From positions 744,001-808,000 of the forward strand of contig NC_043026.1 of the NCBI RefSeq assembly GCF_006345805.1: a DNA stretch of 64,000 nucleotides. Direction: 5' to 3'. The notes under the pieces are model-generated. The model was not told the origin of the DNA. It made no database searches and saw only the letters and a program-made list of their open reading frames with translations. The stretch is from Octopus sinensis (taxonomy: Eukaryota). Within the stretch, counting starts at the first letter, position 1. Each line of letters starts with the position of its first letter. The translations under genes and the position numbers were made by a program. Positions 578 through 46,205 of the stretch are shown in pieces.

Positions 578-915
578 TTACGGAGATGTACTTGCATAGC
601 AAGTGACCTGATCTGAGATTGTGTGCTGGAACGAAAACAATTGCATCATGGAAGGTGTTTATAAGCCATTTAAGAAACACACAAAAACCGTTAGATTCAC
701 TTCAAAATTTAAATTTAATTTGTCAAAATATTTTCATTGCTTTGAGACTGCGACCTGTTCACTGACAATGCAGCATGAAGTTTTGTCAGTGAAGAGGTCA
801 CGGTCTTAAAGCAACGAAAATATTTTGACAAATTAAATTTAAATTTTGAAGTGAATCTAAAGGCTTTGTGTGTTTCTTAAATGGATTACAAACACCTTCC
901 ACGCTGCAATTGTTT
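578..915. mobile_element. Fold-back element in (TA)n, family 1
   Basis: ~134-bp inverted arms (635-768 / 783-915) plus a one-sided ~57-bp tail. A second copy lies at 12049-12358. Confidence 0.8.
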
Positions 916-965
916 ATATATATATAGATGTCCAAACTACACACACACATATATATATATACAGA

Positions 966-1506
966 CAGTGGTGGACTGGCGAGGTTGCCAGCATGCCCGA
1001 TGGCAAGGGGGGCCCCTGCCCCAATAGAGTCCATATATGGGGACCCACATAAGTATCTAAGAGGCTCATCTCCTCAAGTTTGAGAATTTTTTATTCACTT
1101 CCGGAAGAATACATTATTTTAGCCTGGCTGTGTTTGTAGACAGTGGAAAAGAATACTTGTAACCCTTTCAATACCAGCCCCATGGAAACCGCCTCTGGCT
1201 CTGTAGTACAAATGTCTTGTTTTCATAAGTTCTGAATTAAAATTCTTCCACCAAACCTTAGTCACAATTTATGTTCCTAACACTAGGTTAATGATAATGA
1301 AGCTATTTTACTAAATTCTTCGTTATATTTAAAATTAATTGAAAGAAACACAGAACATCTCAAAATAAATATGGTGACGAAAGGGTTAACAAAAAAAAAT
1401 TAAATGATAGCATTGTAGTTGTGGCTGGGCCCTCTTGTAGTTGTGGCTGGGCCCCCTTGTAGTTGTGGGTGGGTTCCCTTAGTCTCCTGGCAACCGCCTG
1501 CCACTG
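966..1506. mobile_element. MITE with CAGTGG termini containing a nested piggyBac-like MITE (1163-1385)
   Basis: CAGTGG...GGTTGCCAG pairs with CTGGCAACC...CCACTG. The inner element is gtaa|CCCTTTC...GAAAGGG|ttaa. A 20-bp unit is repeated three times at ~1414-1478. Confidence 0.55.
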
Positions 1507-1669
1507 TGTACACACATATATACACGTATATACACATATTGTTTCCTACCTACATAAGCAACATCAAATATTTTTCAGTCCCACAATGTTAAAATGCAAC
1601 TCTAGATGCTGCTCTGATAAAGTGTCCTTCCAATAGAATCAATCACAGATATGGTCTTGACTTTCCTCC

Positions 1670-2078
1670 AGGTGCAGGAGTGGCTTTGTGGTAAGTAGCT
1701 TGTTTACCAGCCACATGGTTCTGGGTTCAGTCCCACTGCGTGGCACCTTGGGCAAGTGTCTTCTTCTATAGCCTCGGGCCGACCAAAGCCTTGTGAGTGG
1801 ATTTGGTAGACGGAAACTGAAAGAATCCCATCGTATATATGTATATATATATGTGTGTGTGTGTGTATGTGTGTCTGTGTTTGTCCCCCTAGCATTGCTT
1901 GACAACCGATGCTGGTGTGTTTACGTCTCCGTTACTTAGCAGTTCGGCAAAAGAGACCGATAGAATAAGTACAGGGCTTACAAAAGAATAAGCCCCGGAG
2001 TTGAGTTGCTCGACTAAAGGCGGTGCTCCAGCATGGCCGCAGTCAAATGACTGAAACAAGTAAAAGATTAAAAGAAAG
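1670..2078 (+). mobile_element. tRNA-derived SINE family A, full length
   Basis: A/B-box-like head (TGGCT.TGTGG...GGTTCAGTCCC), an internal TA/TG microsatellite, and a GGCGGTGCTCCAGCATGGCC...TAAAAGA tail. Confidence 0.85.
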
Positions 2079-2199
2079 AGAGAGTATAAAAATCATTGAT
2101 GAGCAACGACAGAAGAAATGAAGTGGAACAAAAACAGCTGAAACTAATGAAAGAAGATGGGCTGGGTTAGGTCCTTCGTTAGCTTAATTGGATCACTCA

Positions 2200-2585
2200 C
2201 AGAGACACAGCCACACACAGGCAGAGACACATGCACGTGTGCATGTGCACACAGACACACACTCACAGACACAGATACATACACACACAGACACACACTC
2301 ACGCAGACACACGCACACACAAAGCCACACACACACACAGACACATACAGACATGCACACACACACTCAGAAACACACACAGACAAATACACTTGCACAC
2401 ACACATACACACTCTCACACACACTGATACACTCACACAGACACACACTTGCACACACACATACACACACACATTTATACACACACACACGCTCAGACAT
2501 ACATACATGCACTCAATCTCACACACACACACACACACACCACACATGCACACACACACTCACACACACACACACATACACACAA
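2200..2585. repeat. Degenerate (CA)n tract
   Basis: Visible directly. Confidence 0.95.
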
Positions 2586-3034
2586 AATAAAACACAGCAA
2601 AACAGTACATTTTCGTAGACTGAAATTTTATAAAAAGCAAGCAAAAAGATCCGTATCATTGAAGACATGCATCTTAATGGAAAATGTTTGCGACTGAGCC
2701 ATGTTGTGGCCACCACTACTGACTACTATGACTACTGACCGACACATAAACAACAGTCATTAAAAACAAAACAAATAGATATAATCATCATCATCATCAT
2801 CACTTAACATTGTTCGCAACTTTCTCTCTCTCTCTCTCATGTGAATGCTAGTCTCTTCCTTCCCTCTTCCCCTCCACCTCTCTCTCTCTCCTCCTTTCTG
2901 TTAGTCTTTCTCTTTGTTGCTACTCTCCTCGGTAACATCACTACCACCACCTCCATCCCCACCATGAACTGTATTTGATTAATTTCACTTAGTAAAAACA
3001 TCAAACATCACAGGTACATACTTATAGTATATAT

Positions 3035-3250
3035 AGTTAGTTAGTTAGTTAATTTTTTGGCTCAAAAAGCAAACAGCAAGGCCATGTAGGGGGACATGGA
3101 GTTATGTACAGGGTGGTGTTCATGTAAAGAGTTCAGGCCACTTGTGGTCAAGGGAGACTTTGAACCGAGCGGTCGTCGGCATCTTCACCATCTCGTCTGG
3201 CAGCTTGTTCCACGGATCCGCAACCCGGACGGAGAAAGCCCCTCTCCTTC
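3035..3250 (-). mobile_element. CR1-clade LINE 3' fragment
   Basis: AFSVRVADPWNKLPDEMVKMPTTARFKVSLD* matches the CR1 ORF2 C-terminal pattern (FS.RV...WN.LP...V......FK..LD). (CTAA)n tail. Confidence 0.75.
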
Positions 3251-3261
3251 AATATGACAAT

Positions 3262-5051: not shown

Positions 5052-6159
5052 CTGTATGTGTGTTGTTGTTGTTGTTGTTGTTGATGTAGCAGATGTCATT
5101 TATGAAAATTTATAAAATTTTGATAAAATCTAAAATAATTCTTTTTCTTTTTTTTTTTTTTTTTGGAAGCGTAGATTTCGAAGCAGATGAAGCTAGAAAT
5201 AACAGCTTGTGAATAAAGGGCTGAAAACCCCTTCTAGATAGAAAGTGCCCTCAAAGTAAACTTAGCAACAACACAGGTTAAAGCCTTAGTTGCTGCAGTT
5301 GTGCTTGATATGCAGAAAAAGAAAAAAAAGAACAGCTAGGTGCACAAAAGATGTAATAGAATGAGGGACAGACTGAAAAGCAAGGACGTGCCACCTGGGT
5401 AGGTAAGGTAGGCAGTGTCTACCCTGAATAAAATAGGTCGATAGCAACATTTTCCTTTTATGGCAAAATATGTACCTAATTCAATAAAATCATGAGGGTT
5501 ACTCTGATTACTATGCATAAAATGCAAAATACTTTACTTTTTTGTAGATGGGGTGGGCATAATTCGCCCCTGCCTTTCAATCTCAGTATTTAAGCTATCC
5601 ACTGTTCTGCTGTAGTACACACGCTGCGTACATTCCTACAACAACGTTTTTTATATATGCTATAATGACAGAAGTAAGTCTGCCTTCAACTCAGTCATAC
5701 AGCTGTTTCGCTTATTTTTTGTGTGTTTTACTACATAAACGTCACCAACTGCCTACCCTGAGTAATTACTGACGGCACGTGCCCGCTGAGAAGGAAGGAG
5801 GTCTGTGACAGATGTATTGGAGTGAGAAGCAGTAAGGTTAGCCATAATTGAAGTTCTTTTAAAGTGGTGGAATGCTTCAGAAAATTAGTCAATAGCTTGT
5901 TACACAAATGACCGAATTAATAGTAAATATGGGTCCTGTGAAAGCAAATAAGACATAGGAAGAAAAGAGTGGGAAAAAGCTTGAGTAGCTATCATCTCTA
6001 CTGGCAATAAGGAAATTTTCTTTCCAAAACAAGGCTGGATTGTATGATGCTCATGTGCAAAGTGCAATGTAGCATGGCAGAGGAAGATTTGCTTGAAATG
6101 TGACGGATGAACAGGAATGAAATGGACACACCTTAGCGAATACATACACATACATATAA

Positions 6160-6491
6160 ATTTTTAATAATTATGAGTATAATTATAATTAGGGTTCATC
6201 AAAAATTTGCTTCACCACATACTGAAATTTAGAAATAGCATTTAAAACTAACTGTTTCTCTACCATGAGAAAATCTCTCAAACAAGAAATAGTTAGTTTT
6301 AACTGCTATTTCTAAATTTTGGTATGTGGTGAAGCAAATTTTTGCTGAACTCTAATTATAATTATACTTATAATTATAAAAATTTTTGTTTAAGTTTACC
6401 GATAATAGTTCTTTTAACATACCGAACTACTTGGTAAAATTATTAATTATTAATTAATTAATTAATTTTACCCTGTATTATTATCATTATT

Positions 6492-6495
<4 letters not shown>
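6160..6495. mobile_element. Fold-back element in (TA)n, family 2
   Basis: Inverted arms ~6161-6257 / 6284-6385 plus a tail. An inverted homologue lies at 42886-43272. Confidence 0.75.
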
Positions 6496-6544: not shown

Positions 6545-6811
6545 ATTATGACTTGAAATTATATTTAATAATATGAATAGTTTTTTTTTTTTATATTTAT
6601 GTAATTAGATATTGACTATAACTGAGATTAGATTATTTGTGGGTTTCTTACCTTAAAAATTAATATTTAACATTATAATCCATTGTATGACATAATCATA
6701 ATCGTTAAAGTTTCTAGTTTGATAATAATAGAGTTTTTTATTAAAATGATTATTTTATTTTTTTCTTAAAAAATATTGTTTAAATATTTCTGATTATTTA
6801 TTTAAATATTA

Positions 6812-6914
6812 TCATTAACCTGAAGATTGACTATAACCATAATTCGAATTATTAATTGAATTTAAATTATTGTTATTCGAATTTGTTTATGGGCATGAAA
6901 CGATCGTAATGGTT
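6812..6914 (+). ncRNA. Hammerhead-like motif with a long helix II
   Basis: CTGAAGA (6820-6826), a ~70-nt imperfect hairpin containing AATTCGAAT/ATTCGAATT, then GAAA and the palindrome ACGATCGT. Helix I register is ambiguous. Confidence 0.45.
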
Positions 6915-7799
6915 TTACTCTTTATCTTATATTAAACTTTTTGATAGTTATTTATATATATATATATATATATATAAAAACAGAAAGATAATGTGAACAG
7001 AAAATGAATTAGATGAAGGGATGAGAGTCATGAACTGGTCATTGTATGGGGTAATATGAATAGTGGGCCAAGAAGAAATGCCGAGTGATCTGAGTATAAG
7101 GGCTATGACCATCTTTGGCAACAATTATTTAACATTGCTAATTTGATGCTGACCTGGCATCAGGCTTTTTAATCTTTCTCTCATTCTCTCTCTCTCTCCC
7201 TCTCTCTCTTTCCCAGAATATCTACGCTAGCATATTTCCTTCATCCGATTGTGGCCGTTTGTCAGCCTTGTCTGGCACCTGAGCAGGTGGCATGTAAAAA
7301 GCACCCACTACACTCACGGAGTGGTTGGCGTTAGGAAGGGCATCCAGCCGTAGAAACATTGCCAGATCGGACTGGGCTTGGTGCAGTCTTCTGGCTTCCC
7401 AGACCCCAGGTGAACCGTCCAACCCATGCTAGCATGGAAAATGGACATTAAACAATGATGAGTTTGTAAAGAGGGAGATTGTTCGCCCCTAATGCCAAAA
7501 TGTGCTGTCGCGCCAAATCACGTCCAATGCCCGGTCAGCCGTGACACATTGTCGGCATCAACGAAGCCCTGCTCGGTCGGTCGGCTCGTTCCAGAGTGGT
7601 AGTGACCGGTAGGTCTCTGCCGATGAGAAAACAAACGATGATATGGAAAGAAGTAGCGAAGACCAATCTTGGGAGGCTGAACCTTACCGAGGGAGATGAT
7701 GACAGAGGACTGTAACAAATGATGAGAGATATCGTGCTGGAGAAGACTGACCCGATTCATGCAAGCATAGAAATATGGACAGAAAATGATGATGACAAT

Positions 7800-9090: not shown

Positions 9091-9410
9091 TACTGTTAAA
9101 AACATGACTATTAAATAATTTTAGAATATTCTTTAACTATGGTTTACATATTTCACAGACTCCATCTTCGTTTGCTGTACTCTTCAAACTATATACAACT
9201 TCTCCATTGAATGGCTGAGACTAATTTCTAATATTTCTTATGTGTGTCTGTTGTGTGTGTGAGGAGGGGGGGGGTGAGAAAGAGAGAGAGAGAGAGATCA
9301 AAAGGATAAAATGAGGGTTAGCGAGAGAGAGAGAGAAGCAGATATATAAGTTGTTCATCTCATCATTTAATGGTCAGTGTCCCCCTGAGCTGGCAAGGGC
9401 TGGACTATAC

Positions 9411-9790
9411 ATAATAATAATGAAATTATTGTATATAGTGCTCAGGTGCACCACAACTTGTCAGAAAGTGCGTATAAAGCCTATGCAGTAATGTACAAAT
9501 GCCTGGGAAGCGAACAATGTATGAGTCAGATACATGCTTGCGTGTGTATGGAGGGGAGAAGATCAGGTGTAGTGTTGGCGAATCTCAGGAAGCATGGAAG
9601 TTTTGAAGGATGCAGTGCTCCGACAACTAACAACTGATGCCAGCAGTTTGTTCCATGCTTCAGCAACTCTCAGCGTGAAAAAATGTTTCCGAAAGTCATG
9701 TAGGGAGCTGTGCTGTTTTCTGACTTTGTAAACATGTCCACGGGTGTTAGACAGGTGGAGTTTGAAAAGGTGCTCAGAGTTATTGTTTCC
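9411..9790 (-). mobile_element. CR1-clade LINE 3' fragment
   Basis: NTRGHVYKV...FRKHFFTLRVAEAWNKL...SFK, followed by a 3' UTR and (TTA)n tail. Confidence 0.8.
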
Positions 9791-9969
9791 TGTTTGATAG
9801 GATCTGATAGGTTCAAGGATTGCATTGTGCTCTAAAGTCTGCTTCTGCAATTGGATGCCCTTCCTAACAGCAACCACTTCACAGTGTACACTGGGTGCTG
9901 TGTTCTTGGCTCTGGCGCCAGCACTAGTGAGGTTGTCATGTAACTTGCAAGACAAAAAAAGATGAGAGA

Positions 9970-10392
9970 AAAAGGCGGTGAGCTGGCAGAAACATAAGTG
10001 CGCCGGGCGAAATGCTTAGCGGTGTTTGGTCTGCCATTACGTTCTGATTTCAAATTCCACCAAGGTCGACTTTGCCTTTCATCCTTTTGGAGTCGATAAA
10101 TAAAGTACCAGTTACGCACTGGAGTCGATGTAATCGACTTAATCTCTTCGTCCGTCCTTGTTTGTCCCCTCTATGTTTAGCCCCTTGTGGGTAGTAAAGA
10201 AATAGGTATTTCGTCTGTTTTTATGTTCTGAGTTCAAATTCCACTGAAATCGACCTTGCCTTTCATCCTTTCGGGGTCGATAAATAAAATACCAGTTATG
10301 CACTGGGGTCGATGTAATTGACTTAATCCCTTCGTCTGTCCTTGTTTGTCCCCTCTATGTTTAGCCCCTTGTGGATAGTAAAGAAATAAGAA
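9970..10392 (+). mobile_element. SINE family B, head plus 2 tandem bodies
   Basis: Head AAGGCGGTGAGCTGGCAGAA followed by the ~184-bp body twice. Confidence 0.85.
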
Positions 10393-11635: not shown

Positions 11636-11848
11636 ATATGCATGTATGTATACGTATATATATATACACGTGCACGTATATACATATGTGTACGTATGTA
11701 TGTATCTATTCACGAATATGTAATTATGTATGTATAAATGCACATGTATGTAAGTAAAATTGTCTAAGGTTTCTACAGGTAAGCTAGTTGCTATCACATA
11801 TGATATTAAAATATATATAGATATACATATATATATCGAAAAACTTAC

Positions 11849-11867
11849 CGATAAAAACACTCACACC
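11849..11867 (-). CDS. Candidate 19-nt microexon (GVSVFI+G)
   Basis: Branch-like CACTAAC (11893-11887). The first AG downstream is caag|GGTGTGAGTGTTTTTATCG|gtaagt, with a consensus donor. Phase 0 in and phase 1 out. Confidence 0.5.
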
Positions 11868-12048
11868 CTTGAGTCAAATCCCGTCGGTTAGTGCAATAAC
11901 AAGGTTTAAATGTAGATTATGTATTAGATATTATATAACATCTCATATAACTCGGGTGCTGTCTTTCATTATAATACAAAAAGCTTTAAAATTAATGATA
12001 TTATTGATAATAATAATTAAAGTATTATTGATAATACTATTTATAAAT

Positions 12049-12358
12049 ATTACGGAGATGTACTCGCATAGCAAGTGATTTGATCTGAGATCGTGTGCTG
12101 AAACGAAAACAATTGCAGCGTGGAAGGTGTTTGTAAGCCATTTAAGAAACACACAAAACCGTTAGATTCACTTCAACATTCAAGTTTAATTTGTCAAAAT
12201 ATTTTCGTCGCTTTAAGACCGCGACCTGTTCACTGACAAAAATCCGTGCAGCGACGAAAATATTTTGACAAATTAAACTTAAATGTTGAAGTGAATCGAA
12301 CGGCTTTTGTGTGTTTCTTAAATGGCTTACAAACACCTTCCACGCTGCAATTGTTTAT
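12049..12358. mobile_element. Fold-back element, family 1, copy 2
   Basis: Same tail (TTACGGAGATGTACT...) and arms as 578-915, with a shorter right arm. Confidence 0.8.
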
Positions 12359-12368
12359 TTATAAATAG

Positions 12369-12729
12369 TACGTTTATATATTTGTTGTGCAAGATTTTTT
12401 ATGTGAAGTCGTGTGTTGAAACAGATATTGTTATATTTCGGAATGGTCATTTTTTTGCCAGTTTAGCCAATAAAAAAACACACGCACTATATATTTGGTG
12501 TTGTCTTGCTTCAGTGTTTGTAAGGAGAGACACACAAATAAGAAAGAAGGAAACAAAGGACCACTGATGCGGTCACAGGAGAGTGACGAAAGAATTCTGG
12601 CCGAAATAAGATTAAGATTAATGTAAAAAATAAATAAATAAAACTGAAGCAAAACAACACCAAATATATAGTGCGTGTGGTTTTTATTGGCTAAACTGGC
12701 AAAATGACCATTCCGAAATATAACAATAT
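12369..12729 (+). mobile_element. Inverted-repeat element with hammerhead, family 3
   Basis: Arms ~12426-12514 / 12643-12729 enclose the hammerhead, with a one-sided tail and an end in a long (TA)n tract. Confidence 0.8.
12558..12602 (+). ncRNA. Hammerhead-like motif, variant core (CUGAUGCG)
   Basis: GGACCA-CTGATGCG-GTCAC(AGGAGA)GTGAC-GAAA-GAAT-TC^TGGCC. Confidence 0.55.
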
Positions 12730-12734
12730 ATAAA

Positions 12735-12823
<89 letters not shown>

Positions 12824-14854: not shown

Positions 14855-15565
14855 AGTCAGGCATGATGATGGTTAAGTCTGAAATTGTGTGAAAAGTCGG
14901 GGCTAGAGAGAGGCAAGATGTGGTACGAGCACAAACTGCAAAGAGGGGTGGAGTTGGAAACTAGCAGCAAAATCCTCTGGGATTTCCCAATCCAAATAGA
15001 TCAGGTGCTTGAGCATAACAGACCGGACCTAATGGTAGGGGACAAAGTGGCAAGCTGGCAGAAACGTTAGCATGCCGGGCAAAATGCATAGCTGTATTTC
15101 GTCTGCCGTTACGTTCTGAGTTCAAATTCCGTTGGGGTCGACTTTGCCTTTCATCCTTTCGGGGTCGCTAAAAATAAGTACCAGTTACGCACTGGGGTCG
15201 ATATAATCGACTTAATCCGTTCGTCTGTCCTTGTTTGTCCTCTCTGTGTTTAGCCCCTTGTGGGTAGTAAAGAAATGGGTAGGGGACAAGGTGCACCACA
15301 TGTGCTGTATGGTTGATGTTGTGTGCCCCTTCGACCCACGAATAGTCAAGAAGGAAGGCGAAAAGACAGATAGATACATCCCTCTTAAGTACGAAATAGT
15401 CCGGTTATGGAAAATGAGAAGGTGAAGATAGTGCCAATTTTTATTAGGTTCTTGGGAACTATATCAGAAGGCATCAAGAGGAATATAAAGGGAATTGGAA
15501 TAGAGTTCCCAGTAGAACTGTTACAAAAGGTTTGCTTCTTTGGCACGGCCAGAATAATCAGGGAA
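14855..15565 (+). mobile_element. R4/Dong-like non-LTR retrotransposon restriction-like endonuclease remnant, interrupted by SINE B (15050-15277)
   Basis: RHD...WYEH...ILWDFPIQ.D....HNRPDL...VDV.CP.D....KE.EK..RY..L...VKIVP....LG...LLQK....GTARIIR. A 16-bp duplication GGTAGGGGACAA(A/G)GTG lies at 15034 and 15278. Confidence 0.8.
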
Positions 15566-15960
15566 GAATATATGCAAACATCGTTTAACGTCCACTTTCC
15601 ATGCTGGCATGAGTTGGACGATTTGATTGAGGACTGGCGAACCAGATGGCTGCACCAGGCTCCAATCTGATCTGGCAGGGTTTCTACAGCTGGATGCCCT
15701 TACTAATGCCAACCACTCTGTAGGTGTAGTGGGTGCTTTTACGTGCTACCAACATGAGGGCCAGTCAGGTGGTACTGGCAACGACCTTGCTTGAATGTTT
15801 TTTCATGCACAACCGGCAGTAGGGCGACGCTGGTAATGATCATGCTCGAATGGTGCATTTTACGTGCCACCGGCACAGAAGCCAGTTAGTTGCTCTGATG
15901 GTGCTTGGATGGTGCTCTTAGCACTTCACTAGCATGGATGCCAGCCATCGAATTTGATTT

Positions 15961-16009: not shown

Positions 16010-16611
16010 CGTATATTTGCCATATAAATATGGATAACCCCTAAGGGTGGGTGCTACTGTAGTTTGTATCCCTAGGAGGACACCTCCTCTAGCTGGCCAT
16101 AGACACACTTTCTGTGCCCTACACACTTTCTTTTTTACATATATATATATATAATATATATATATATATGTATGTATGTGCATGCATGTATATATGTATG
16201 TGCATGTATGTATATATGTATGTTTATGTGTGTGTGTGTCTGTGTGTGTGTTTCTTTGCTTGTGTCTGTTCCAATGATTCCCGGTGTAAAGTGGAAGAGA
16301 TCGAGTATCTTCAGGACATAAACCGTAACTCAGGTGTTTGATAAATGGCGATTGATAAAATAAGGTCTAGACTTGAATAAGCTAAGGTGGGAGGGTAGGG
16401 GTCAATATAATAAACTGAAACCCCTTTTAAGACGGAGCTCCAGCATGGCCACAAACCAATGACTGAAACCAGGAAAAAAATGAATAAAAGACAACATTCA
16501 CGTATAGACCTATAAACATACATACACACATATATACATGTATATATGCAAACACACAGCTATATACATACATACATACACACATACATACATACATATA
16601 TATATATATAT

Positions 16612-17207
16612 CTTTACTACCCACAAGGGGCTAAACACAGAGGGGACAAACAAGGACAGACAAACGGATTAAGTCGATTACATCGACCCCAGTGCGTAAC
16701 TGGTACTTATTTAATCGACCCCGAAAGGATGAAAGGCAAAGTCGACCTCGGCGGAATTAGAACTCACAACGTAACGACAGACGAAATACCAATTTCTTTA
16801 CTACCCACAAGGGGCTAAACACAGAGGGGACAAACAAGGACAGACAAACGGATTAAGTCGATTACATCGACCCCAGTGCGTAACTGGTACTTAATTTATC
16901 GACCCCGATAGGATGAAAGGCAAAGTCGACCTCGGCGGAATTTGAACTCAGAACGTAACGGCAGACGAAATACCTATTTCTTTATTACCCACAAGGGGCT
17001 AAACACAGAGGGGACAAACAAGGACAGACAAACGGATTAAGTCGATTACATCGACCCCAGTGCGTAACTGGTACTTAATTTATCGACCCCGATAGGATGA
17101 AAGGCAAAGTCGACCTCGGCGGAATTTGAACTCACAACGTAATGACAGGCGAAATACTACCAAGCATTTCGCCCGGCGCGCTAACGTTTCTACCATCTCG
17201 CCGCCTT
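16612..17207 (-). mobile_element. SINE family B, head plus 3 tandem bodies
   Basis: Three near-identical ~184-bp units and a single head at ~17160-17207. Confidence 0.85.
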
Positions 17208-17221: not shown

Positions 17222-17478
17222 ATCCGGATTGTTTGTAGAAATACATAATTCCAGAAAAAAAGCACACTCTGAGATGCAGGGCAGTTAATATTCCAGTGGG
17301 GCAGGCCGGTCTATGGTGTTACCCTGGGTTTAAATATTTTAAAGAGATCTAAATATTTAAAAATATTTTAAAGAGGTCTCAGGCCAAGCTGTGTTTGGGG
17401 TCTGAAGATATGCCATAAGGCTAAACCCCTTATGAGTGAGAAACCCAGGGTAACCCCATAAACCGGCCTGCCCCTCTA
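17222..17478 (+). mobile_element. Inverted-repeat element with hammerhead, family 4
   Basis: GGGGCAGGCCGGTCTATGGTGTTACCCTGGGTTT (~17297-17330) is inverted at ~17441-17474. TA flanks on both sides. A related tail fragment lies at 24959-25064. Confidence 0.75.
17397..17457 (+). ncRNA. Minimal type I hammerhead ribozyme with intact core
   Basis: GGGGT-CTGAAGA-[helix II CATAAGG/CCTTATG]-GAAA-CCCAGGG-TA^ACCCC. Helix I is GGGGU/ACCCC and helix III is the quasi-palindrome ACCCAGGGU. Predicted cut between 17452 and 17453. Confidence 0.75.
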
Positions 17479-17929: not shown

Positions 17930-18335
17930 CTGAAATGCAGAATGGGAGGAATAGAAAGAAAAGGGGTATTTTCAAGTTGAAAGGATCAGTGAATGACTTG
18001 TAAACAGTTGAAGAGTGAGTGTGATAGATATGGGAAGAGCAAGAAAGACATTGAGAGTTTGAGAGAAAGAGAGAGAGGGAGAGAGAGAGAGAGAAAGGGA
18101 GAGAGAGAGGAAGGGAGAGAGAGAGAGGAAGGGAGAGAGAGAGAGAGAGAGGGAGAGTAATTAGTATTTTTCTACTTTAGGCACAAGGACCAAGATTTTT
18201 GGCGAGGGGGCCAGTCAATTAGATCGACCACAGTATGCAACTGGTACTTCATTTATCAACCCCGAAAGGATGAAAAGGTGGAGTACAAACAAACAAATGT
18301 ATTAGTGTAGTGCTCAGGAATAGAAATAGAAAAAG

Positions 18336-18373
18336 TCTTTTACGTTTCGAGCCTATGCTCTTCAACAGAAAGA
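18336..18373 (-). ncRNA. Minimal hammerhead motif, variant core (CUGUUGA)
   Basis: TCTTT-CTGTTGA-A-GAGC(ATAG)GCTC-GAA-ACGT-A^AAAGA. Helices I and II are perfect, helix III is the palindrome ACGU, and A6 is changed to U. Confidence 0.6.
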
Positions 18374-18487
18374 TAAACAGAAAAGAAACAAAGAGAGAAA
18401 CAAGGAGAGAAAAAAATGCATGTAGGAGCTAATGATCTATCATGGCGTATATATATATAGTCATGTATGTAATAATGTTTCTCTTAC

Positions 18488-19269: not shown

Positions 19270-19555
19270 TAAGGAAATGAAGAAAATGCTGACAAAATAA
19301 TTTAAGTAAGGGAGAGTGTATTTAATTAGGTGAAAGTTCAAACCGTCCAACCCATGCCAGATAAAAGAAAAAAAATCTATCAGAAAGGAACTCTATCTCT
19401 CTTAAAAAAATATCTTTTGATAAGCATAAGAAATGCGCAACCGGTAAAAAGAACTTTCACCTAATTAAATACACTCTCCCTTACTTAAATTATTTTGTCA
19501 GCATTTTCTTCATTTCCTTTTTTTATATATCACAACTCGTGTTCCACATCTCCTT
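19270..19555 (+). mobile_element. Inverted-repeat element, family 5, with degenerate hammerhead
   Basis: Near-perfect ~70-bp arms 19271-19340 / 19451-19521. Internal TCTTT-TGATAA-GCAT(AAGAA)ATGC-GCA-ACCGGT-A^AAAAGA. Confidence 0.7.
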
Positions 19556-19589
19556 TTTTAAATATATATATATATATATGTATTCACAT

Positions 19590-19830
19590 AAATATCAATA
19601 AAATCATTAATTAAAATACAGATCATATCAACTGGCCAGCAAGGAATAAAAACTTTATAGGTATTAATCATTATTAAAATTATAATTAAGGAACGTCTAA
19701 GAGATACCACCATGCTAGAGATAGCAGTCAAAACTTGAATCTAAAACCACATCATGTGGTTTTATAGTCAAATTTTGACTGCTATCTCTAGCATGGTGGT
19801 ATCTCTTTGATATCCTTAATTATAATTTCA
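19590..19830. mobile_element. Fold-back element, family 6
   Basis: Arms AATTATAATTAAGGA...GATACCACCATGCTAGAGATAGCAGTCAAAA (~19678-19732) inverted at ~19772-19827, with a tail and TA flanks. Confidence 0.7.
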
Positions 19831-24912: not shown

Positions 24913-25065
24913 TATGTATGTATATATGTATATGTATATATGATTATGTATACGTATATCCGGATCATTTGTAGAAGTACATTAATCCGGAGGAGAATCA
25001 CACTCTAAGATGTAGAGCAGTTAATACTACAATGGGGAGGGGCAGTTAAACCAGCCTCCTCATCA

Positions 25066-26151: not shown

Positions 26152-26446
26152 TATATTGTTATATTTCGGAATGGTCATATTGCCAGTTTAGCCAATAAAA
26201 ACACACGCGCTATATATTTGGTGTTATTTTGCTTCAGTGATATTTATTTTTTACATTAATCTTAATCTTATTTCGGCCAGAGTTCTTTCGTCACACTCCT
26301 GTGACCGCATCAGTGGTCCTTTGTTTTCTTCTTTTGTATTTGTGTCTCTCCTTACTAACCGTCAGCCATTCCGAAATATAACAATATCTGTTTCAACACA
26401 CAACTTCACATAAAAAAATCTTGCACAACAAATATTTAAACGTACT
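26152..26446 (-). mobile_element. Family 3, copy 2
   Basis: Reverse-complement homologue of 12369-12729 with one truncated arm, flanked by TA repeats. Confidence 0.8.
26275..26319 (-). ncRNA. Hammerhead-like motif, second copy of the CUGAUGCG family
   Basis: GGACCA-CTGATGCG-GTCACA(GGAG)TGTGAC-GAAA-GAAC-TC^TGGCC. Confidence 0.55.
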
Positions 26447-26537
26447 AATATATATATACATACAGATATACATGTAATGTAAAGAAATAAATGGTAAGCA
26501 TTGGTGTAATGGAATAAAATTTGGTTTTGATTCTTAC

Positions 26538-28084: not shown

Positions 28085-28230
28085 CTGAAGAAATAAATAC
28101 GTAAGAATTAGATAAATAAATACGCAAGAATTAAAGAAATGCAATACATGTTAGAAAAAATATAGATCTAACAAACACATATAGAAGTAACATATATTTA
28201 AGAGCAAACAAGAAAAAGCAAACAGTGAAA

Positions 28231-29893: not shown

Positions 29894-30291
29894 TATATAT
29901 TAGAAGAAATGAGGTACTCAGAAGATCGGATGGTTTATATTTACAGATATTTATTTGTATATTACATTTTTTACATATATATCATATCACTTAGATCATT
30001 AGCGCTTTCTCCCATTCTAGTGGGGTTTTCAAATCAAACTAAGTTCCTGTGTGAGGAGATTTGACCATTTTATAAAACTCTATAAAATGGTCAAATCTCC
30101 TCACACAGGAACTTAGTTTGATTTGAAAACCCCACTAGAATGGGAGAAAGCGCTAATGATCTAAGTGATATGATATATATATAAAAAATGTAATATACAA
30201 ATAAATATCTGTAAATATAAACCATCCGATCTTCTGAGTACCTCATTTCTTCTAATATATAATACCTGTACATCATCTCCAAACCTTCCAA
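29894..30291. mobile_element. Near-perfect ~180-bp-arm palindrome in (TA)n, family 7
   Basis: Arms ~29895-30074 / 30081-30260 are almost identical, with a ~30-bp tail. Each arm has a degenerate hammerhead (TTGAAAA-CCCCA...TGGGA-GAA-AGCGCT-A). Confidence 0.85.
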
Positions 30292-30580: not shown

Positions 30581-32670
30581 CTAAAAGGACAGACATATAC
30601 CATAGGAGGCAAGAACCATCTAGTATGGGTGCAGTAACTGCAAGGTCATGGGATTTCAGTACTCTGTGCTTCTTCAGTGGCAGACATCAACCCAGCACAC
30701 ACTAACCAAATCCCACTGGCGATAATATAGAGAATAACGATGACTTTTCAATTACTGGAGTTACAAATAACCAACAGCAAAAACTAATATTAGCAAGAAA
30801 TAAGTATTATTAACTTCAAAAGGCAATCTTTACGCCTCATATCGTTAGAGTGCTGAATACAGTGGTATTTGCCTTGACAGGTCTTGATGATGATGGTGGT
30901 GGTAAAGACAATGGTGGCAGTGGTAATAATGATGATGATGATGATGAAGATAGTGATGGTGGTGATGATGAAGGCAATGATGACGATGACCATGGCAGCA
31001 GTGGAGGTGGGCTGATGATGATGATGATGATGATGATGAAGATAGTGATGGTGGTGATGATGAAGGCAATGATGACAATGACCATGGCAGCAGTGGAGGT
31101 GGGCTGATGATGATGATTATGATGTTGTTGTTGCTTAGCAACTACCCCCTGGATAGTAGGTCAGTGCTGCTCCTCAATCACCACCTGCCTCTCTGCCATC
31201 CTCAGCCATCTCTTCCTTAGGATGTGCAGATGGTGGAGGAACAGGGAAGTTGGGTAGGCGGCTCCTGAAAACTTGACCTGGGGGGGGGCGACCCTTGGGC
31301 TGGAGCCATCACGTCTCGAGTTTTTTTTTCTTTAGCCAGTAGTTGTTGGTTGAGAACTGTTCTTTGCCAATTGCCCCACCCCCCCGCAACACTTCTGGGA
31401 AGTCATTCTCCAGTTGGTGATGATGATGATGATGGTGGTAGTAATGGTGATGATACATAACTGACCAAATCCTTTTTGGCCGGCTGGTCTTAGCAAAGTC
31501 CAGGTTTTCCAAAGTTTATTTTTCTTTAAGTAATTTTTTTTTTTTTAATGTTTGTTGCTTTGTTAGACAGGAGATTCATGACTATATATCATTCAACCAT
31601 GAAAAATGATGATGATGGCTGGTGGCGCTGATGATGATGATGATGATGGTAGTTATGATGATGATGATGCTGATGGTAGTTACAATGATGATGATGATGA
31701 TGATAATGATGATGGTAGTTATGATGATGATGATGCTGATGGTAGTTACGATGATGATGATGATGAGCATAGTGATGATGATGATGACGATGATGATAAT
31801 GATGATGATGGTGGTGGTGGTGAGACACAGTTGACATGATTTTTGTGGCCGAATTCCTAGTGTATTCACAGACACATGGGTCCGGTTGGTAACCTAGCAA
31901 CGTCCTTACGTCCACTGACACCAATAAAATACGACAGCACTTTGACATTTGACATGGAAAGAGGTCCCTAGTCCCAGATGGCTACAATCATTTGGAACAG
32001 ATCGGTTCCCACTGGCAGAGAGATCAAGGCAAAGCATCTCGTTATAATTATCTTTGACTTCTTTCAGCCGTTGGACTGTGGCCATGCTGGGGCATTGACT
32101 TGAAGGACTTTAGTCAAACAAATTGGTCTCAAGTTTTTTTGTTTTTTTTTTCAAATCTGGTACTTATTCTATCTGTCTCTTTTGCCAATCTACTAAATAA
32201 CAGGGATGTAAGCAAACCAACACCAATTTTTGATGTGAACGTATACATAACAGGATTCTTTCAGTTTCCATCTACAAAATCTACTCAAAGGGCTATTGTA
32301 TAAAAAACTCTTGCTCAAGGTACCATGCCGTAAGACTGAACCTGAAGCCATGGGGTTGGAAACCACACACCCATGGCTGTATTAATAGATTAGAAAATAT
32401 AATTTTAGTTTGCAAATATAAAGCTTAATGACCAAATTTAATGTGTGTAACGAACCCTTTTTTGTCAAAACTTAGGTTAAAAAAATATGGGGGTTTCTTA
32501 TACATGGATAGTATTATAGATATTAATAAATTACTTAATTCCTTGAACCTCAAATCTCCGTATTAGGGGCTTCCTTATACACATTAGAATACAGTAGTTG
32601 TCTCTTTAGTTGTCAAAGATGTTATGTCTGTATAGTTAAATAAATCCCGTTCTTCCAAGATACTTATTAG

Positions 32671-33290
32671 TGGAGGCACACGGCCTAGTGGTTAGGGCAG
32701 CGAACTCGCAGTCGAGGGATTGCGGGTTCGAATCTCAGACCGAACAATGTGTGTATTTATGAGCGGAACACCTAAGCTCCACGTTGCTCCGGCAGAAGGT
32801 AATGGCAAACTTCTGCTGACTTTTCGCCACAACTTTCTCTCACTCTTTCCTCCTGCATCTTGCAGCTCACCTATGACGGACCGGTGTCCCGTCCAGGTGG
32901 GGAACCTATACGCCAAGGAAACCGAGAAACTGGCCCTTATGAGCCAGGCATGGCTCGAGAAGGAACAAAACAATATAATCCATCATTGTCGTGGAGGCAC
33001 ATGGCCTAGTGGTTAGAGCAGCGGACTCGTGGTCGAGGATCACGGGTTCAATTCTCAGACCAGACAATGTGTGTGTTTATGAGCGAAACACCTAAGCTCC
33101 ATGCGGCTCCGGCAGAAGGAAATGGCGAACTTCTGCTGACTCTTTCGCCACAACTTTCTCTCACTCTTTCTTCCTGCATCTTGCAGCTCACCTGCGATGG
33201 ACTGGCGTCCGGTCCAGGTGGGGAACCTATACGCCAAGAAAACCGGGAAACTGGCCCTTATGAGCCAGGCATGGCTCAAGAAGGAACAGA
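32671..33290 (+). mobile_element. Two adjacent SINE family C copies
   Basis: TGGAGGCAC..GGCCTAGTGGTTAG heads at 32671 and ~32992, each ~300 bp. Confidence 0.85.
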
Positions 33291-33494: not shown

Positions 33495-34095
33495 ATATTT
33501 CTTTACTACCCACAAGGGGCTAAACACAGAGGGGACAAACAAGGACAGACAAATGGATTAAGTTGATTACATCGATCCCAGTGCGTAACTGGTACTGAAT
33601 TTATCGACCCCAAAAGGATGAAAGGCAAAGTCGACCTCGGCGGAATTTGAACTCAGAACAGGTGGCAGACGAAATACCTATTTCTTTATTACCCACAAGG
33701 GGCTGAACACAGAGAGGACAAACAAGGATAGACAAATGGATTAAGTTGATTACATCGATCCCAGTGCGTAACTGGTACTGAATTTATCGACCCCAAAAGG
33801 ATGAAAGGCAAAGTCGACCTCAGCGGAATTTGAACTCAGAACAGGTGGCAGACGAAATACCTATTTCTTTATTACCCACAAGGGGCTGAACACAGAGAGG
33901 ACAAACAAGGACAGAGAAATGGATTAAGTTGATTACATCGATCCCAGTGCGTAACTGGTACTGAATTTATCGACCCCAAAAGGATGAAAGGCAAAGTCAA
34001 CCTCGGTGGAATTTGAACCCAGAACGTAACGGCAGACGAAATACGGCTACGCATTTTGCCCGGCGTGCTAACGATTCTGCCAGCTTGCCGCCTTT
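33495..34095 (-). mobile_element. SINE family B, head plus 3 tandem bodies
   Basis: Same architecture. The units share locus-specific variants (GTTGATTAC, GGTACTGAAT). Confidence 0.85.
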
Positions 34096-34204: not shown

Positions 34205-34670
34205 TTCTCTCATGGAGGCAAGATGGCTGAGTTCCTTTCGAGCGTTGGGCCTCAAGGATGCAAAGTGGCCAAGTTCCTTACGAGTGTTGGGCCTCAAGGA
34301 TGCAAAGTGGCCAAGTTCCTTACGAGTGTTGGGCCTCAAGGATGCAAAGTGGCCAAGTTCCTTACGAGTGTTGGGCCTCACAGAGGCAACGACCGAGACC
34401 TTTGGCATTATGTTGTGCTTGAGAAGAAGACCCATCAAGCTGAGCAAAATAATAATCGTGGCAGATACTGGTGTCACAAAAATGGCACCCATGCTAGTGG
34501 CACCCGTTACACTCTCAGAGTGGTTGGTGTTAGGAAGGGCATCCAGCCTTAAAAAAACCACGACAAATCAGACTGGAGCCTGGCGCAGCCTTCCAGCATG
34601 CCAACCCAGTCAAACTGTCCAACCCATGCCAGCATGGACAACGGACATTAAATGATGATGATGAAGATGA
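34205..34670 (+). mobile_element. RTE-like 3' end / SINE family D with an internal 42-bp tandem repeat (~4 copies)
   Basis: GGAAGGGCATCCAGC...TCCAACCCATGCCAGCATGGA...(GAT)n tail. Other copies lie at ~7270-7461, 15580-15950 (minus) and 21265-21480. Confidence 0.75.
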
Positions 34671-35384: not shown

Positions 35385-35798
35385 TTATTATTTCTTTATT
35401 GCCCACAAGGGGGCTAAACGTAGAGGGGGACAAACAAGGACAGACAAACGGATTTAAGTCGATTACATCGACCACAGTGCGTAACTGGTACTTATTTAAT
35501 CAACCCCCGAAAGGATGAAAGGCTAAGTCTTCCTCGGCGGAATTTGAACTCAGAACGTTACGACAGACGAAATACCTATTTCTTTATTGCCCACAAGGGG
35601 CTAAACGTAGAGGGGGACAAACAAGGACAGACAAACGGATTTAAGTCGATTACATCGATCCCTAGTGCGTAACTGGTACTTATTTAATCGAACCCCGAAA
35701 GGATGAAAGGCTAAGTTGACCTCGGAGGAATTTGAACTCAGAACGTTGCGGCAGACGAAATACCAGCGTGCTAACGTTTCTGCCAGCACGCTGCCTTA
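35385..35798 (-). mobile_element. SINE family B, 2 tandem bodies
   Basis: Same family. Older variant copies lie at ~18170-18275, 24020-24238, 28365-28556 and 37608-37830. Confidence 0.8.
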
Positions 35799-42885: not shown

Positions 42886-43270
42886 AGCAATAATAATAAG
42901 GGGTAAAATTAATTAATCAGTTTATAATTAATAATCTTACCAAATAGCTCAGAACCATTATCGGTAAACTTATACAAAAATTATTATAATTATAAACATA
43001 ATTGTAATTAGGGCTTGGCAAAATTGCTTCACCACATACCGAAATTTAGAAATAGCAGTTAAATACTATCCTTCTACCATAAGATAACACCCAGACAGCA
43101 ATACTCTCAACACACACAGGGAAAGAGGTCGGACTCCTTATTTTTTCTCTTTGCCTCTGTGTGTTGAGAGTATTGCTGCTCTGGGAGTTATCTGATGGTA
43201 GAAGGATAGTATTAACTGCTATTTCTAAATTTCAGCATGTGGTGAAAGCAATTTGCAAAGCCCTAATTAT

Positions 43271-43272
<2 letters not shown>
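42886..43272. mobile_element. Fold-back element, family 2, copy 2
   Basis: Shares GCTTCACCACATAC.GAAATTTAGAAATAGCA arms and the tail with 6160-6495. Arms ~43005-43128 / 43148-43272, flanked by TA runs. Confidence 0.75.
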
Positions 43273-43315
<43 letters not shown>

Positions 43316-44694
43316 TAGACATACATACATATCTATCTCTCTCTATATACATATATATCAATGTAAAACTTGTAATAGAGCTTTTGGAAGTGCTTTGGAT
43401 ATTTTTTCTATGTACTTATAAGTATATTATGATATGCAGTGGCATATCTGTAGTGATATATGCAATATAATATATATATATAATATATATATTGATATAT
43501 ATACCATATTTTATATATATATATTTAGATATATACATATATGTGAATATGTATGTTTAAAATTCACATATAAATATCTACATACATATATGTATACACA
43601 CATATATATGTGTATATATATATATATATATATACATATATATAGCCATTTATTAATGGCATTGTCTACAGAAGCATTTGTTAGTGTCAAACAACACAAG
43701 GTGTGTATTTTATAAACTTTACTATAATAGTAATAATAACAATAATAATAATAATATAATTATTATTATTATTACTATTATTATAGTAAAATAATAACAA
43801 TAATAATAATTATTATTATTATTATAATGATAATAATAATAAAGACAATAATTTTGATTATAGGCTCAAGGCCAAGAAACTTTGTAGGGGAGGGTACAGT
43901 GGATTAAATTAGCTCATTAATTAACTTTATTTTATCAACTCCCAGAATGGATAAGTTGACAGCTTTTCGAGATTTGAACCCAAAACTAAATACTGTGAAG
44001 GCATTTCTTTGCTATTCTTCATTCTCTCGGTTTCATTCCGCTAAGTTATCAATCACACTGTACTACCTCAAAATACAGTACAAATATTGTTTGTTTGTAT
44101 TACGTAGAAAAAAAAAAATTTCATGAAAAAAAAACAAAAAACAACCGTTATAAGGCATTTTGCCGTTACCCAAAAACCAACTTCATTTTGGGTAACCGAC
44201 TAGTTTTTCGAAGAGGAGTATATGCGGATTCTGAAATAGAACACGTGTCACAGTTAGATGTGGAGTTCTAAAACAGAAATAACTTCTTATATATATTAAT
44301 ATACATACATAAATATATATTTATATATATCTATACATATATATATTTATGTTGTATACATATCATTTTCGTCGCAAGGCCAAGTGTATAAACTGTATTT
44401 ACACCATGATTTGATATTTCGAAATTTTTAAAATTATAATCGAGTCTCTTTAAAAAAAATAAACTTGATGACACATTCACCCAAGAACCATGTAATTTGG
44501 GATTGGTTTAAGTCAATGAATCACAAAAAAAAAAAAAAAAATAAATTAAAACGTCCTCATAAATATTTGTTGTTTTATCCTGATAATATGATTCGTCATC
44601 GTCATAATCGCTTTTATATGGGCATTTTGTTTGTTTCCTGTTAAAATGAATTCAGTTGTACAACCATGGGACTTTGAATTGTTTCATTTCATAG

Positions 44695-44760
44695 ATGTGG
44701 AGCAGACCTTGAGTGAAAGAACAATCTGTGGGCAAAGGGACATTTGTCTGCACGAACAGG
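44695..44760 (+). CDS. Candidate 66-nt exon of a second, plus-strand gene
   Basis: gtttcatttcatag|ATGTGG...GAACAGG|gtgagt. Only the phase 1-1 frame is open: (D)VEQTLSERTICGQRDICLHEQ(G). It could also be a UTR exon. Confidence 0.5.
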
Positions 44761-44922
44761 GTGAGTATAAAAGTATATTTTATATATATATAGACAGAAG
44801 TCACCCTGGAACATGCAAAAGTCTTACGTGATCAGTAGAATTTTAAGAGTTTGAAATTTTAAAAATGATATATCACAGTGGTGCTAAATAGCCACCGATT
44901 TACTGAAAGCAAGCAGTAGTAG

Positions 44923-45022
44923 NNNNNNNNNNNNNNNNNNNNNNNNNNNNNNNNNNNNNNNNNNNNNNNNNNNNNNNNNNNNNNNNNNNNNNNNNNNNNN
45001 NNNNNNNNNNNNNNNNNNNNNN
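44923..45022. other. Assembly gap (100 N)
   Basis: Run of 100 N, a typical placeholder of unknown true size. Confidence 0.99.
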
Positions 45023-45626
45023 GTACAATATTAATTAGTTAATTAATGGCGATGGTTAATGACAATGTGAATGTGCTTTAACGAGAGAATTTAACTGAAA
45101 GAGAAATAAAAAAAAAATTTCAACAGAGATCGACAATGAAAGTGGTTTAGTGGCAGCAGTAGTACTAGCTGTACCAGTATAGTAGTAGTAGTAGTAGTAG
45201 TAGCTAGTTAGTGTTAGTGGTTGTGATTATGATTGTGGTAGTGGTAGGGTTGATGGTGGTGGTGGGGTGGAGGGTGAGGTGATAATAGCAGCAGTGGTGG
45301 TAGTGGTGGTGGTGGTGGAGATGGTAGAGTCAGTAGTGGTAGTATTAGTAGTAGTAGTCGTAGTAGCAGCAGTAGTAGTGGTGGTGGGGTGGTAGTAGTA
45401 TAGTAATACTAGTAGTAGTAGTAACAGTAATGGTGGTGGCTGGGTGGTGATGGTGGTAGTTGTAGCAGTGGTGGTGGCAGTAGTAGTAGTGGTTATAGTA
45501 GTAGTAGTATGTGTAGTGGTGGGTAGTAGTAGTAGTAGTAGTAGAGGATAGTGGTGGTGGGTAGTAGTAGTAGTAGTAGTGTATAGTAGTGGTGTGATGG
45601 TGGTAGTCAAATAGTGACAGTGGTGA

Positions 45627-45664
<38 letters not shown>

Positions 45665-45836
45665 TAGTAGTAGTAGTGGTAGTATAAGTAGTAGTAAACT
45701 GGCCCCTATTGAAATTCTTACACAAAATATATATGCACTGAGAACCATTATATGTATATATGTATATATATATCATATATATAATCATATAATATATCAT
45801 ATATATAAAAGAGAGAGAGTAAAGAGTATATATTAT

Positions 45837-45878
<42 letters not shown>

Positions 45879-46081
45879 ATTATATATATATATATATCTA
45901 TATCTATAAATATCTATATATATGTATATATTATATATATATATATATATATGTATATTATATATATATATATATATATCTATATCTATAAATATCTATA
46001 TATATGTATAATATTATATATATATATAATATATATATATATGTGTATCATATATATAAAGATATATAATACTATATATAT

Positions 46082-46204
46082 TACGTTTATATATTGTTTT
46101 GCAAGATTCTTGATGTGAAATCGTGTGTTGAAAACAGAGTTGTTGGTTTAGGAATGGTATTATTGGGCTAAACTGGCAAATGACCATCCTAAATACAACA
46201 ATAT
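46082..46204 (+). mobile_element. Family 3 remnant at the satellite junction
   Basis: Diverged tail (TACGTTTATATATTG...GTGTGTTGAAA) and collapsed arm ends, directly abutting the 300-bp array. Confidence 0.65.
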
Positions 46205-46205
46205 A

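What the first reader, a model, noticed from the sequence alone, without database searches (positions are those of the whole stretch)
578..46204. A diverse system of (TA)n-embedded fold-back mini-elements carrying hammerhead ribozymes
Seen: at least 7 sequence-distinct families (578, 6160, 12049, 12369, 17222, 19270, 19590, 26152, 29894, 42886, 46082) share one architecture. Each is 120-400 bp and non-coding, sits in a TA microsatellite, and has two inverted arms plus a one-sided tail. Four of these families, plus two further TA-flanked elements (6.5-6.95 kb and 18.3 kb), contain a CUGANGA-like box, a hairpin, GAAA, a palindrome and UH, each with a different palindrome (ACGT, ACCGGT, AGCGCT, ACGATCGT, ACCCAGGGT). 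Known: Penelope-like elements carry minimal type I hammerheads with palindromic helix III in pseudo-LTRs that can be inverted and have a tail. Inference: these are non-autonomous Penelope-derived, ribozyme-bearing elements at about one per 4 kb. They would probably be mislabelled as MITEs or unknown repeats.
Basis: partly seen in the sequence, partly recalled or inferred. Interest (0 to 1): 0.85.

Follow-up and report, generated by a model that had tools for sequence, protein, structure and literature searches.

The report
Fold-back stubs of Penelope-like retroelements
These short hairpin-shaped repeats, likely from an octopus, are real; one very abundant family carries the first 30 codons of a Penelope-like jumping gene plus a predicted self-cutting RNA motif, so they are likely end pieces left behind by such genes, a known kind of by-product rather than a new element.

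Summary
The architecture is real: 11 of 11 named elements have two inverted arms and a tail on one side; most ends sit in TA repeats. Hammerhead motifs are clear in four families (578/12049, 12369/26152, 17222, 18.3 kb), weak in three (19270, 29894, 6.5-6.95 kb) and absent in two (6160/42886, 19590). Rfam models find none.

The Penelope link is shown for family 578/12049. Its arm plus tail encodes 30 residues 93% identical to the start of an Octopus protein whose relatives are full-length RT plus C-terminal GIY-YIG proteins of Neptune-like layout. Family 12369 is homologous to it. So these two families are not non-coding: they are pseudo-LTR ends (hammerhead, ORF start, tail) joined head to head.

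The inner joints differ between copies, so the hairpin is not copied as a unit. Public contigs suggest a fixed 5' end about 22 nt before the hammerhead core. Most likely each insertion is made anew from RNA of a Penelope-like element; self-copying non-autonomous masters are not excluded. Inverted pLTRs, tails, TA targeting and opposite-strand hammerhead pairs are all published. Minor extra: family 578/12049 has a natural G3:C8 core swap. Cleavage is untested.

The parts
578..915 (.). Family A copy 1: tail 578-634, left arm 635-768, right arm 783-915
720..768 (-). Family A hammerhead motif in left arm, core GUGAACA (G3:C8), helix II decayed; the right-arm copy at 789 (+) reads GUGAAGA
577..669 (-). 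ORF start of a Penelope-like protein (31 codons, one stop at codon 8)
   Evidence: tblastn 87% to P0005 residues 1-31
12049..12356 (.). Family A copy 2: tail 12049-12106, long left arm 12107 to about 12249, right arm 12251-12356
12190..12240 (-). Family A type I hammerhead motif: 7-bp helix I, GUGAACA, extra G, 5-bp helix II, GAAA, palindrome AAUAUU, UU
12052..12141 (-). Open ORF start, 30 codons (P0001); the tail-less arm ends at codon 11
12367..12729 (.). Family D copy 1: tail 12367-12424, short left arm 12425-12515, long right arm 12516-12729
12558..12602 (+). Family D hammerhead motif: CUGAUGC (C at position 9; A in a minority of genomic copies), helix II, GAAA, short helix III
12367..12450 (-). 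Open ORF start, 28 codons (P0002), homologous to family A
26153..26447 (.). Family D copy 2: long left arm to about 26360 with hammerhead on - strand (26313 to 26280), 22-nt right arm, tail 26388-26447
46082..46205 (.). Family D copy 3: tail and two very short arms, cut before the hammerhead
17222..17477 (.). Family E: tail 17222 to about 17294, short left arm to 17331, long right arm
17396..17459 (+). Family E hammerhead motif with intact boxes CUGAAGA and GAAA, palindrome ACCCAGGGU, 6-bp helix I
24958..25037 (-). Second, tail-only copy of family E (80% identical)
18334..18375 (-). Solo hammerhead motif (CUGUUGA, one core mismatch; palindrome ACGU) in a non-inverted element of about 18285-18440
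19270..19560 (.). Family G: arms 19271-19339 and 19451-19519, 23-nt filler from another repeat at 19338-19360, tail to 19560; weak hammerhead candidate at 19417 (+; UUGAUAA, GCAA)
   Evidence: missed by descriptors
19580..19828 (.). Family H: tail 19580-19676, arms 19677-19750 and 19756-19828; no hammerhead found
29894..30291 (.). Family I: near-perfect 181-nt arms, 6-nt loop, tail 30262-30291; weak hammerhead candidate at 30123 (+; UUGAAAA, GAAA, AGCGCU) mirrored in the left arm
6158..6495 (.). Family B copy 1: arms 6158-6259 and 6285-6386, tail of about 100 nt on the right; no credible hammerhead
42886..43275 (.). Family B copy 2 (about 80% identical): tail on the left, arms 42982-43127 and 43147-43275
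6545..6952 (+). Very AT-rich element between two TA runs, not inverted; hammerhead boxes at 6820 and about 6897 with palindrome ACGAUCGU, helices weak

Best explanation
The elements of families A and D are pairs of Penelope-like pseudo-LTR ends (predicted hammerhead, ORF start, tail) joined head to head, likely made anew at each insertion when the RT-endonuclease of a Neptune-like element primes on both strands of a cut TA repeat and copies only the short 5' part of its RNA. Shown: the sequence content, the ORF link, outward-pointing sense strands, fixed outer ends and variable inner joints. Inferred from published work on another element: the enzyme cuts both strands, one cDNA starts at the tail end and the other about 58 nt further in, which gives a tail on one side only. 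Inferred here: the template stops about 22 nt (A) or 48 nt (D) before the hammerhead core, probably at the transcription start in the pLTR, so the cDNAs are at most about 210-280 nt and are joined with variable loss and occasional filler. The hammerhead is a passenger, predicted to need a dimer to cleave. Families B, E, G, H and I are probably the same product from other Penelope-like lineages.
For: ORF link: a two-sequence profile of the A and D peptides found 2 proteins in 1.84 billion; P0003 is an Octopus bimaculoides record. P0001 is 93% identical to the N-terminus of P0005 from O. sinensis, which continues in frame. P0005 aligns with O. vulgaris P0006/P0036 and with the 1045-aa P0007 (31% over 204 aa, E 8e-26). 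29 longer relatives of P0006 share YVDD, a CxxxxCxxC linker and a C-terminal YxGETSR; RVT_1 hits 5 of 29 and C-terminal GIY-YIG 6 of 29, both together in 2; the Atlas first hit for P0007 880-1030 scores 0.97 with GIY-YIG on 13% of members. The tail-less arm ends at codon 11 and the tail runs to codon 31, as published for Adineta pLTRs (12 and 22 aa; PMC3846280). In 7 of 7 fold-back copies with a hand-assigned motif (5 families) its sense strand points outwards. Inner joints differ in both A and all three D copies; contigs show 15 listed joints, all different, plus 170 unlisted. Loose ends at 12249 in 93, 100, 10 and 11 contigs of four runs agree for 6-8 letters and then fall to 0.46-0.53 agreement. 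Two-strand cleavage and extension, a predicted dimer and two internal RT starts bounding the tail are published (PMC11167929). TA preference is published for linker-bearing clades (PMC8557442).
Against: No ORF body lies in the window: tblastn of 34 proteins hit only A and D ORF starts. No genome was available, so no full element with this pLTR was seen as DNA. All RVT_1 and GIY-YIG hits are below Pfam's cut-offs; NCBIfam and PDB sequence searches gave nothing relevant. No longer protein with a D-type start was found. A/D protein likeness (10 of 25) is not more than their DNA likeness predicts (P 0.15; 0.07 with no stop), and 5 of 12 listed variants in the ORF starts are synonymous (P 0.09-0.28), so coding constraint is not shown. 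None of the 24 listed loose ends runs on into an ORF beyond the tail (1480 rows hidden). The fixed 5' end fits a short non-autonomous master equally well, and contig counts favour unique joints. B and H have neither hammerhead nor ORF link. Only families A and D were laid on public data.
Confidence: 0.65

Rival explanations
1. Short non-autonomous masters (leader, hammerhead, ORF start, tail; about 210-280 nt) are transcribed from the pLTR's internal promoter and mobilised in trans, each insertion forming a new head-to-head pair.
For: Fixed 5' end and very deep contig pile-up (summed depth up to 3.3 million against 43.4 on the flank in run X2; the tool warns this is no copy number). pLTR sequences suffice in trans and the promoter is internal (PMC3846280; PMC2377424). 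Non-autonomous Chlamys families and retrozymes exist.
Against: The A peptide is 28 of 30 identical to an ORF-bearing copy; common variants F14S and K21R also occur in P0003; no shared stop among non-CpG variants listed; no tandem units as in retrozymes.
Confidence: 0.22
2. Ordinary random 5' truncation of full-length cDNA started at the 3' pLTR, or later deletion of the ORF body between inverted pLTRs; or self-priming on an antisense template as proposed for Adineta.
For: Heavy 5' truncation and inverted truncated copies are general for these elements (PMC8557442); truncation explains opposite-strand hammerhead pairs in Schistosoma (PMC4209133); self-priming was proposed from junction palindromes. 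One arm is always variably cut.
Against: Random truncation predicts a shared continuation upstream of 12249; the listed loose ends show none. Two D copies end within a few bases of each other. Joints at 578, 12049 and 19270 are not palindromic turns, and 19270 has foreign filler.
Confidence: 0.15
3. The elements are MITEs (DNA transposons with terminal inverted repeats and a TA target), and the hammerhead likenesses are chance in AT-rich DNA.
For: Inverted arms, TA flanks, no Rfam hammerhead hit; loose descriptors do hit AT-rich DNA by chance. Remains open for B and H.
Against: One-sided tails, variable inner joints, ORF start of an RT-GIY-YIG protein in A and D, strict descriptor above all 150 shuffles.
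Confidence: 0.03

Closest known systems
Inverted pseudo-LTRs with tail in endonuclease-bearing Penelope elements of Adineta vaga (PMC3846280; passages read)
   Same: pLTR of about 200 bp that holds the first codons of the ORF, tail extends the frame, inverted copies are head to head, solo pLTRs occur.
   Different: Here the ORF body is missing between the inverted ends, targets are TA repeats so no target duplication can be read, and abundance is far higher.
Minimal hammerheads of metazoan PLEs (Cervera and de la Pena 2014, PMC4209133; parts 1-2 of 4 read)
   Same: Type I fold, extra base between 9 and 10.1, G10.1-C11.1, palindromic helix III, pairs on opposite strands 100-700 bp apart, U3-A8 swap.
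   Different: Family A has a G3:C8 swap, which the parts read do not mention; family D mostly has C at position 9. Cephalopods are not named in the parts read.
Neptune/Nematis clades of C-terminal EN+ PLEs (Craig et al. 2021, PMC8557442; passages read)
   Same: C-terminal GIY-YIG, CX2-5CxxC linker, hammerhead present, microsatellite bias, inverted truncated copy and one-sided tail.
   Different: Tails here are 58 nt (A, D) to about 100 nt (B, H) against 30-40 bp; the DKG motif reads DKS; clade placement was not tested by a tree.
Poseidon of Anolis carolinensis (Frangieh et al. 2024, PMC11167929; parts 1-2 of 4 read)
   Same: Hammerhead, ORF start and tail in the same order; two internal RT starts explain the tail; the engineered C3G/G8C double change partly keeps cleavage.
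   Different: There the ORF starts inside the hammerhead; here about 55 nt (A) after it.
Non-LTR retrozymes (bioRxiv 10.64898/2026.07.22.740005, parts 1-2 of 5 read; PMC7229834, listing only)
   Same: Short, PLE-related, type I hammerhead.
   Different: Retrozymes are head-to-tail tandem repeats; these are inverted pairs with an ORF start and variable joints.

Membership tests
EN+ Penelope-like element (pLTR part) | Sequence continuous with an RT plus GIY-YIG ORF | tested here: met
   Family A by protein chain; D only through homology with A; DNA contiguity not seen
EN+ Penelope-like element (pLTR part) | pLTR holds the first codons of the ORF and the tail extends them | tested here: met
   Arm ends at codon 11, tail at codon 31
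EN+ Penelope-like element (pLTR part) | Inverted truncated copy head to head, tail at one end | tested here: met
   polarity 7 of 7 copies with a hand-assigned motif
EN+ Penelope-like element (pLTR part) | ORF link for families B, E, G, H, I and the two solo elements | tested here: inconclusive
   No tblastn hit with the 34 proteins in hand; no family-specific protein search was run
Neptune clade | C-terminal EN with CX2-5CxxC linker and CCHH motif | tested here: met
   Seen by eye in P0007 and relatives; these are 28-55% identical to P0006 over the matched part, not the Octopus element itself
Neptune clade | Placement in an RT tree with reference clades | not tested
   No named reference PLE proteins were fetched
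Type I minimal hammerhead | Core boxes, helices I-II, palindromic helix III | tested here: met
   A, E and 18.3 kb; D with A9C and a non-palindromic two-base loop; weak for G, I, 6.5 kb; absent in B, H
Type I minimal hammerhead | Covariation in helices across copies | tested here: inconclusive
   3 of 3 listed stem variants in A keep pairing as G-U, but half of all transitions would; no two-sided change; 40 of 50 variants shown. Across families the 3:8 pair is C:G, U:A or G:C in hand-picked boxes
Type I minimal hammerhead | Match to an Rfam hammerhead model | tested here: not met
Type I minimal hammerhead | Self-cleavage | not testable with these tools
   Only contigs were available; they cannot show RNA ends
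Non-LTR retrozyme | Head-to-tail tandem units each with a hammerhead | tested here: not met
   No tandem array of these elements; the 303-bp satellite has no descriptor hit
MITE | Fixed-length unit with symmetric terminal inverted repeats | tested here: not met
   One-sided tails and different joints in every copy
Non-autonomous element with its own master copies | Subfamilies that descend from a short master rather than from ORF-bearing copies | not testable with these tools
   Needs the genome

The most novel reading that the evidence does not exclude
Octopus Neptune-like elements mass-produce 'strong-stop' stubs: a dimeric RT-endonuclease primes at two sites near the 5' end of its own mRNA from both strands of a cut TA repeat, so each stub records the transcription start, both priming sites and the hammerhead of its parent. 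The stubs would be a genome-wide read-out of the unresolved Penelope transposition cycle, and family A would be a very abundant natural hammerhead with the G3:C8 rescue pair fixed.
Probability: 0.35. Interest if true: 0.55.

Novelty: new member of a known kind. Interest (0 to 1): 0.3.

Why it matters
How Penelope-like elements form tandem and inverted ends is still open (PMC8557442, PMC11167929). A high-copy family with fixed outer ends, a fixed 5' end and many different joints would let twin-priming and self-priming models be tested by counting. For annotation, such stubs look like MITEs or miRNA hairpins (Rfam's best sub-threshold matches were plant miRNA models); an O. vulgaris repeat annotation lists MITE and unknown families and, in the parts read, does not mention these stubs (PMC13282606, parts 1-2 of 3). 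Whether its library already holds them was not checked; its supplement and Zenodo data were not read. The kind itself is known.

Tried and rejected
Own genome: none held. Rfam: five scans, no hammerhead listed. First descriptor without 3:8 covariation: 3 hits at two mismatches, one outside any element. Loose descriptor: noisy in AT-rich DNA, treated as weak. Selection on the ORF start: not significant. RNA editing: A>G counts in the two possibly-RNA runs (6, 6) are not above the DNA runs (7, 8); contigs are a poor test. Expression: runs X12 and X14 are only guessed to be RNA, so no claim is made. Empty orthologous sites: no listed joint skips a whole element (15 of 185 shown). D-type long protein: none. 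Pfam on P0001-P0004 and P0006, NCBIfam on four proteins, PDB with profile A3 and the Atlas with P0003: nothing useful. The 303-bp satellite as a retrozyme: rejected, no descriptor hit in 700 nt tested. No structure model was obtained, so domain identity rests on motifs and sub-threshold hits. Lunse et al. 2017 on PLE hammerhead variants was not held, so whether natural G3:C8 cores are already in print is open; one search listed only two papers, and one search listed none holding 'G3-C8' among 15 of 30 shown. 'non-autonomous Penelope' gave one butterfly preprint, not read. PMC12602865 and PMC8967140 (passages) and PMC6765202 (passages) added only background.

Full report
Setting. No genome is held for this window. 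Named Octopus proteins match its repeats at 88-94%, so the host is likely an octopus. Twenty of 24 listed public runs, from 10 studies and four organism labels plus one metagenome, hold the stretch 12040-12735.

Observation. All 11 named elements have inverted arms and a one-sided tail and fall into 7 blastn groups, called A, B, D, E, G, H and I here. 19 of 26 ends have a TA run within 12 nt against 11.6% of random places. Rfam finds no hammerhead. My strict descriptor hit 3 of 14 intervals, more than any of 150 shuffles at one core mismatch; the only two perfect-core hits in 46 kb are both family A. A looser descriptor, tuned after the fact, recovered the hand-assigned motif in 4 intervals and also gave chance hits. 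Minimum-energy folds of the excised motifs form helices I and II for A 12049, D, E and the 18.3 kb motif; G, I and the 6.5 kb motif fold weakly or in other registers. I rate A, D, E and 18.3 kb as good, G, I and 6.5 kb as weak, B and H as negative.

The Penelope link. Read towards the tail, families A and D each have an ATG frame open to the tail end. A profile of the two peptides found 2 proteins among 1.84 billion. One is an O. bimaculoides record. It led to an O. sinensis protein whose first 30 residues are 93% identical to the A peptide and which continues in frame, and to O. vulgaris proteins that reach the first RT motifs. [quoted passage not shown] By the definitions in PMC8557442 this is a Neptune- or Nematis-like layout; no tree was built. 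The tail-less arm stops at codon 11 and the tail at codon 31, matching the published pLTR anatomy (PMC3846280). A and D share 44 of 75 nt there and have tails of equal length; their protein likeness is not above what the DNA likeness gives. A search for a long D-type protein failed. The window holds no ORF body.

Variation among copies. I laid 4 of the 24 listed runs, all contigs, on 11840-12735 only. 32,586, 23,407, 2,635 and 1,197 records fit. Summed depth reaches 3.3 million on the elements against 43.4 on the left flank in run X2; the tool warns that this is not a copy number, so I say only 'very abundant'. The 15 listed joints all differ (170 more unlisted). The outer ends of D run into TA repeats (70, 59 and 68 contigs in the listed rows). 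At 12249 the loose ends agree for 6-8 letters and then scatter, which points to a fixed 5' end about 22 nt before the core; the 578 copy's right arm starts at the same place, and the two long D arms end within a few bases of each other. Caveat: the table counts contigs, favours unique joints and hides 1480 rows. No core position of A is among the 40 of 50 variants shown, so G3:C8 appears to be the family norm; the three stem variants keep pairing as G-U, which half of all transitions would do. In D, position 9 is C in most and A in 5-55% of depth by run.

Mechanism. In 7 of 7 fold-back copies with a hand-assigned motif the sense strand points outwards, as expected if each arm is a cDNA primed from one target strand. 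Published work on a lizard element shows cutting and extension of both strands, a predicted dimer and two internal RT starts bounding the tail, with the hammerhead dispensable for insertion in vitro (PMC11167929). Applying this here is inference. With a template that begins in the pLTR (internal promoter, PMC2377424), priming near the 5' end gives short cDNAs that are joined with variable loss; the 23-nt filler from another repeat in 19270 fits such joining. In read-through RNA the arms are predicted to pair (62-90% of bases), which would bury the motif in 578 and 29894. I give this 0.65, short trans-mobilised masters 0.22, random truncation, deletion or antisense self-priming 0.15, MITEs 0.03.

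Comparison with what is known. Inverted truncated copies, tails and TA preference (PMC8557442), opposite-strand minimal hammerheads from truncated elements and a U3-A8 swap (PMC4209133), and ORF-start-bearing pLTRs are in print. Retrozymes are tandem and do not fit. Earlier unchecked notes of this scan on other genomes reached a similar reading; look-ups by place and by sequence found nothing. I looked at these notes after forming my reading and do not count them as support. Supplements of the cited papers were not read and may already list Octopus families or G3:C8 cores.

Verdict. A correct and well-observed catch of a known kind. The new details are the explicit ORF link, the apparent fixed 5' end and the natural G3:C8 core. 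Interest 0.3.

Noticed in passing
window 26534-28150 (-): A 538-codon stop-free, serine-rich frame, probably a host exon; the D copy at 26152 lies just downstream of it. Not identified.
   Followed up: partly
window 46208-64000: A 303-bp satellite of 59 copies, 95% alike, with strong strand skew, begins directly after the D copy at 46082. No hammerhead by descriptor.
   Followed up: partly
window 19338-19360: Filler at the inner joint of family G is identical to a piece of another repeat at 21402-21424 and nearly so at 34610-34632, suggesting a template switch.
   Followed up: partly
window 12049-12730: Copies of the related families A and D lie about 10 nt apart, without a TA run between them.
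   Followed up: no
protein P0005 (O. sinensis XP_029654200.2): The gene model fuses about 215 residues of the Penelope-like ORF to a methyltransferase domain: mis-annotation or exonisation.
   Followed up: no
window 15290-15570 and 9400-9830: Look like decayed 3' parts of other LINE types (R4/Dong-like and CR1-like; labels recalled, not tested).
   Followed up: no
window 10037-10388, 16611-17157, 33496-34044, 35389-35764, 32670-33288: Short tandem arrays of 183-188 bp and 321 bp SINE-like repeats (SINE label recalled).
   Followed up: no
window 44923-45022: A run of N (assembly gap).
   Followed up: no
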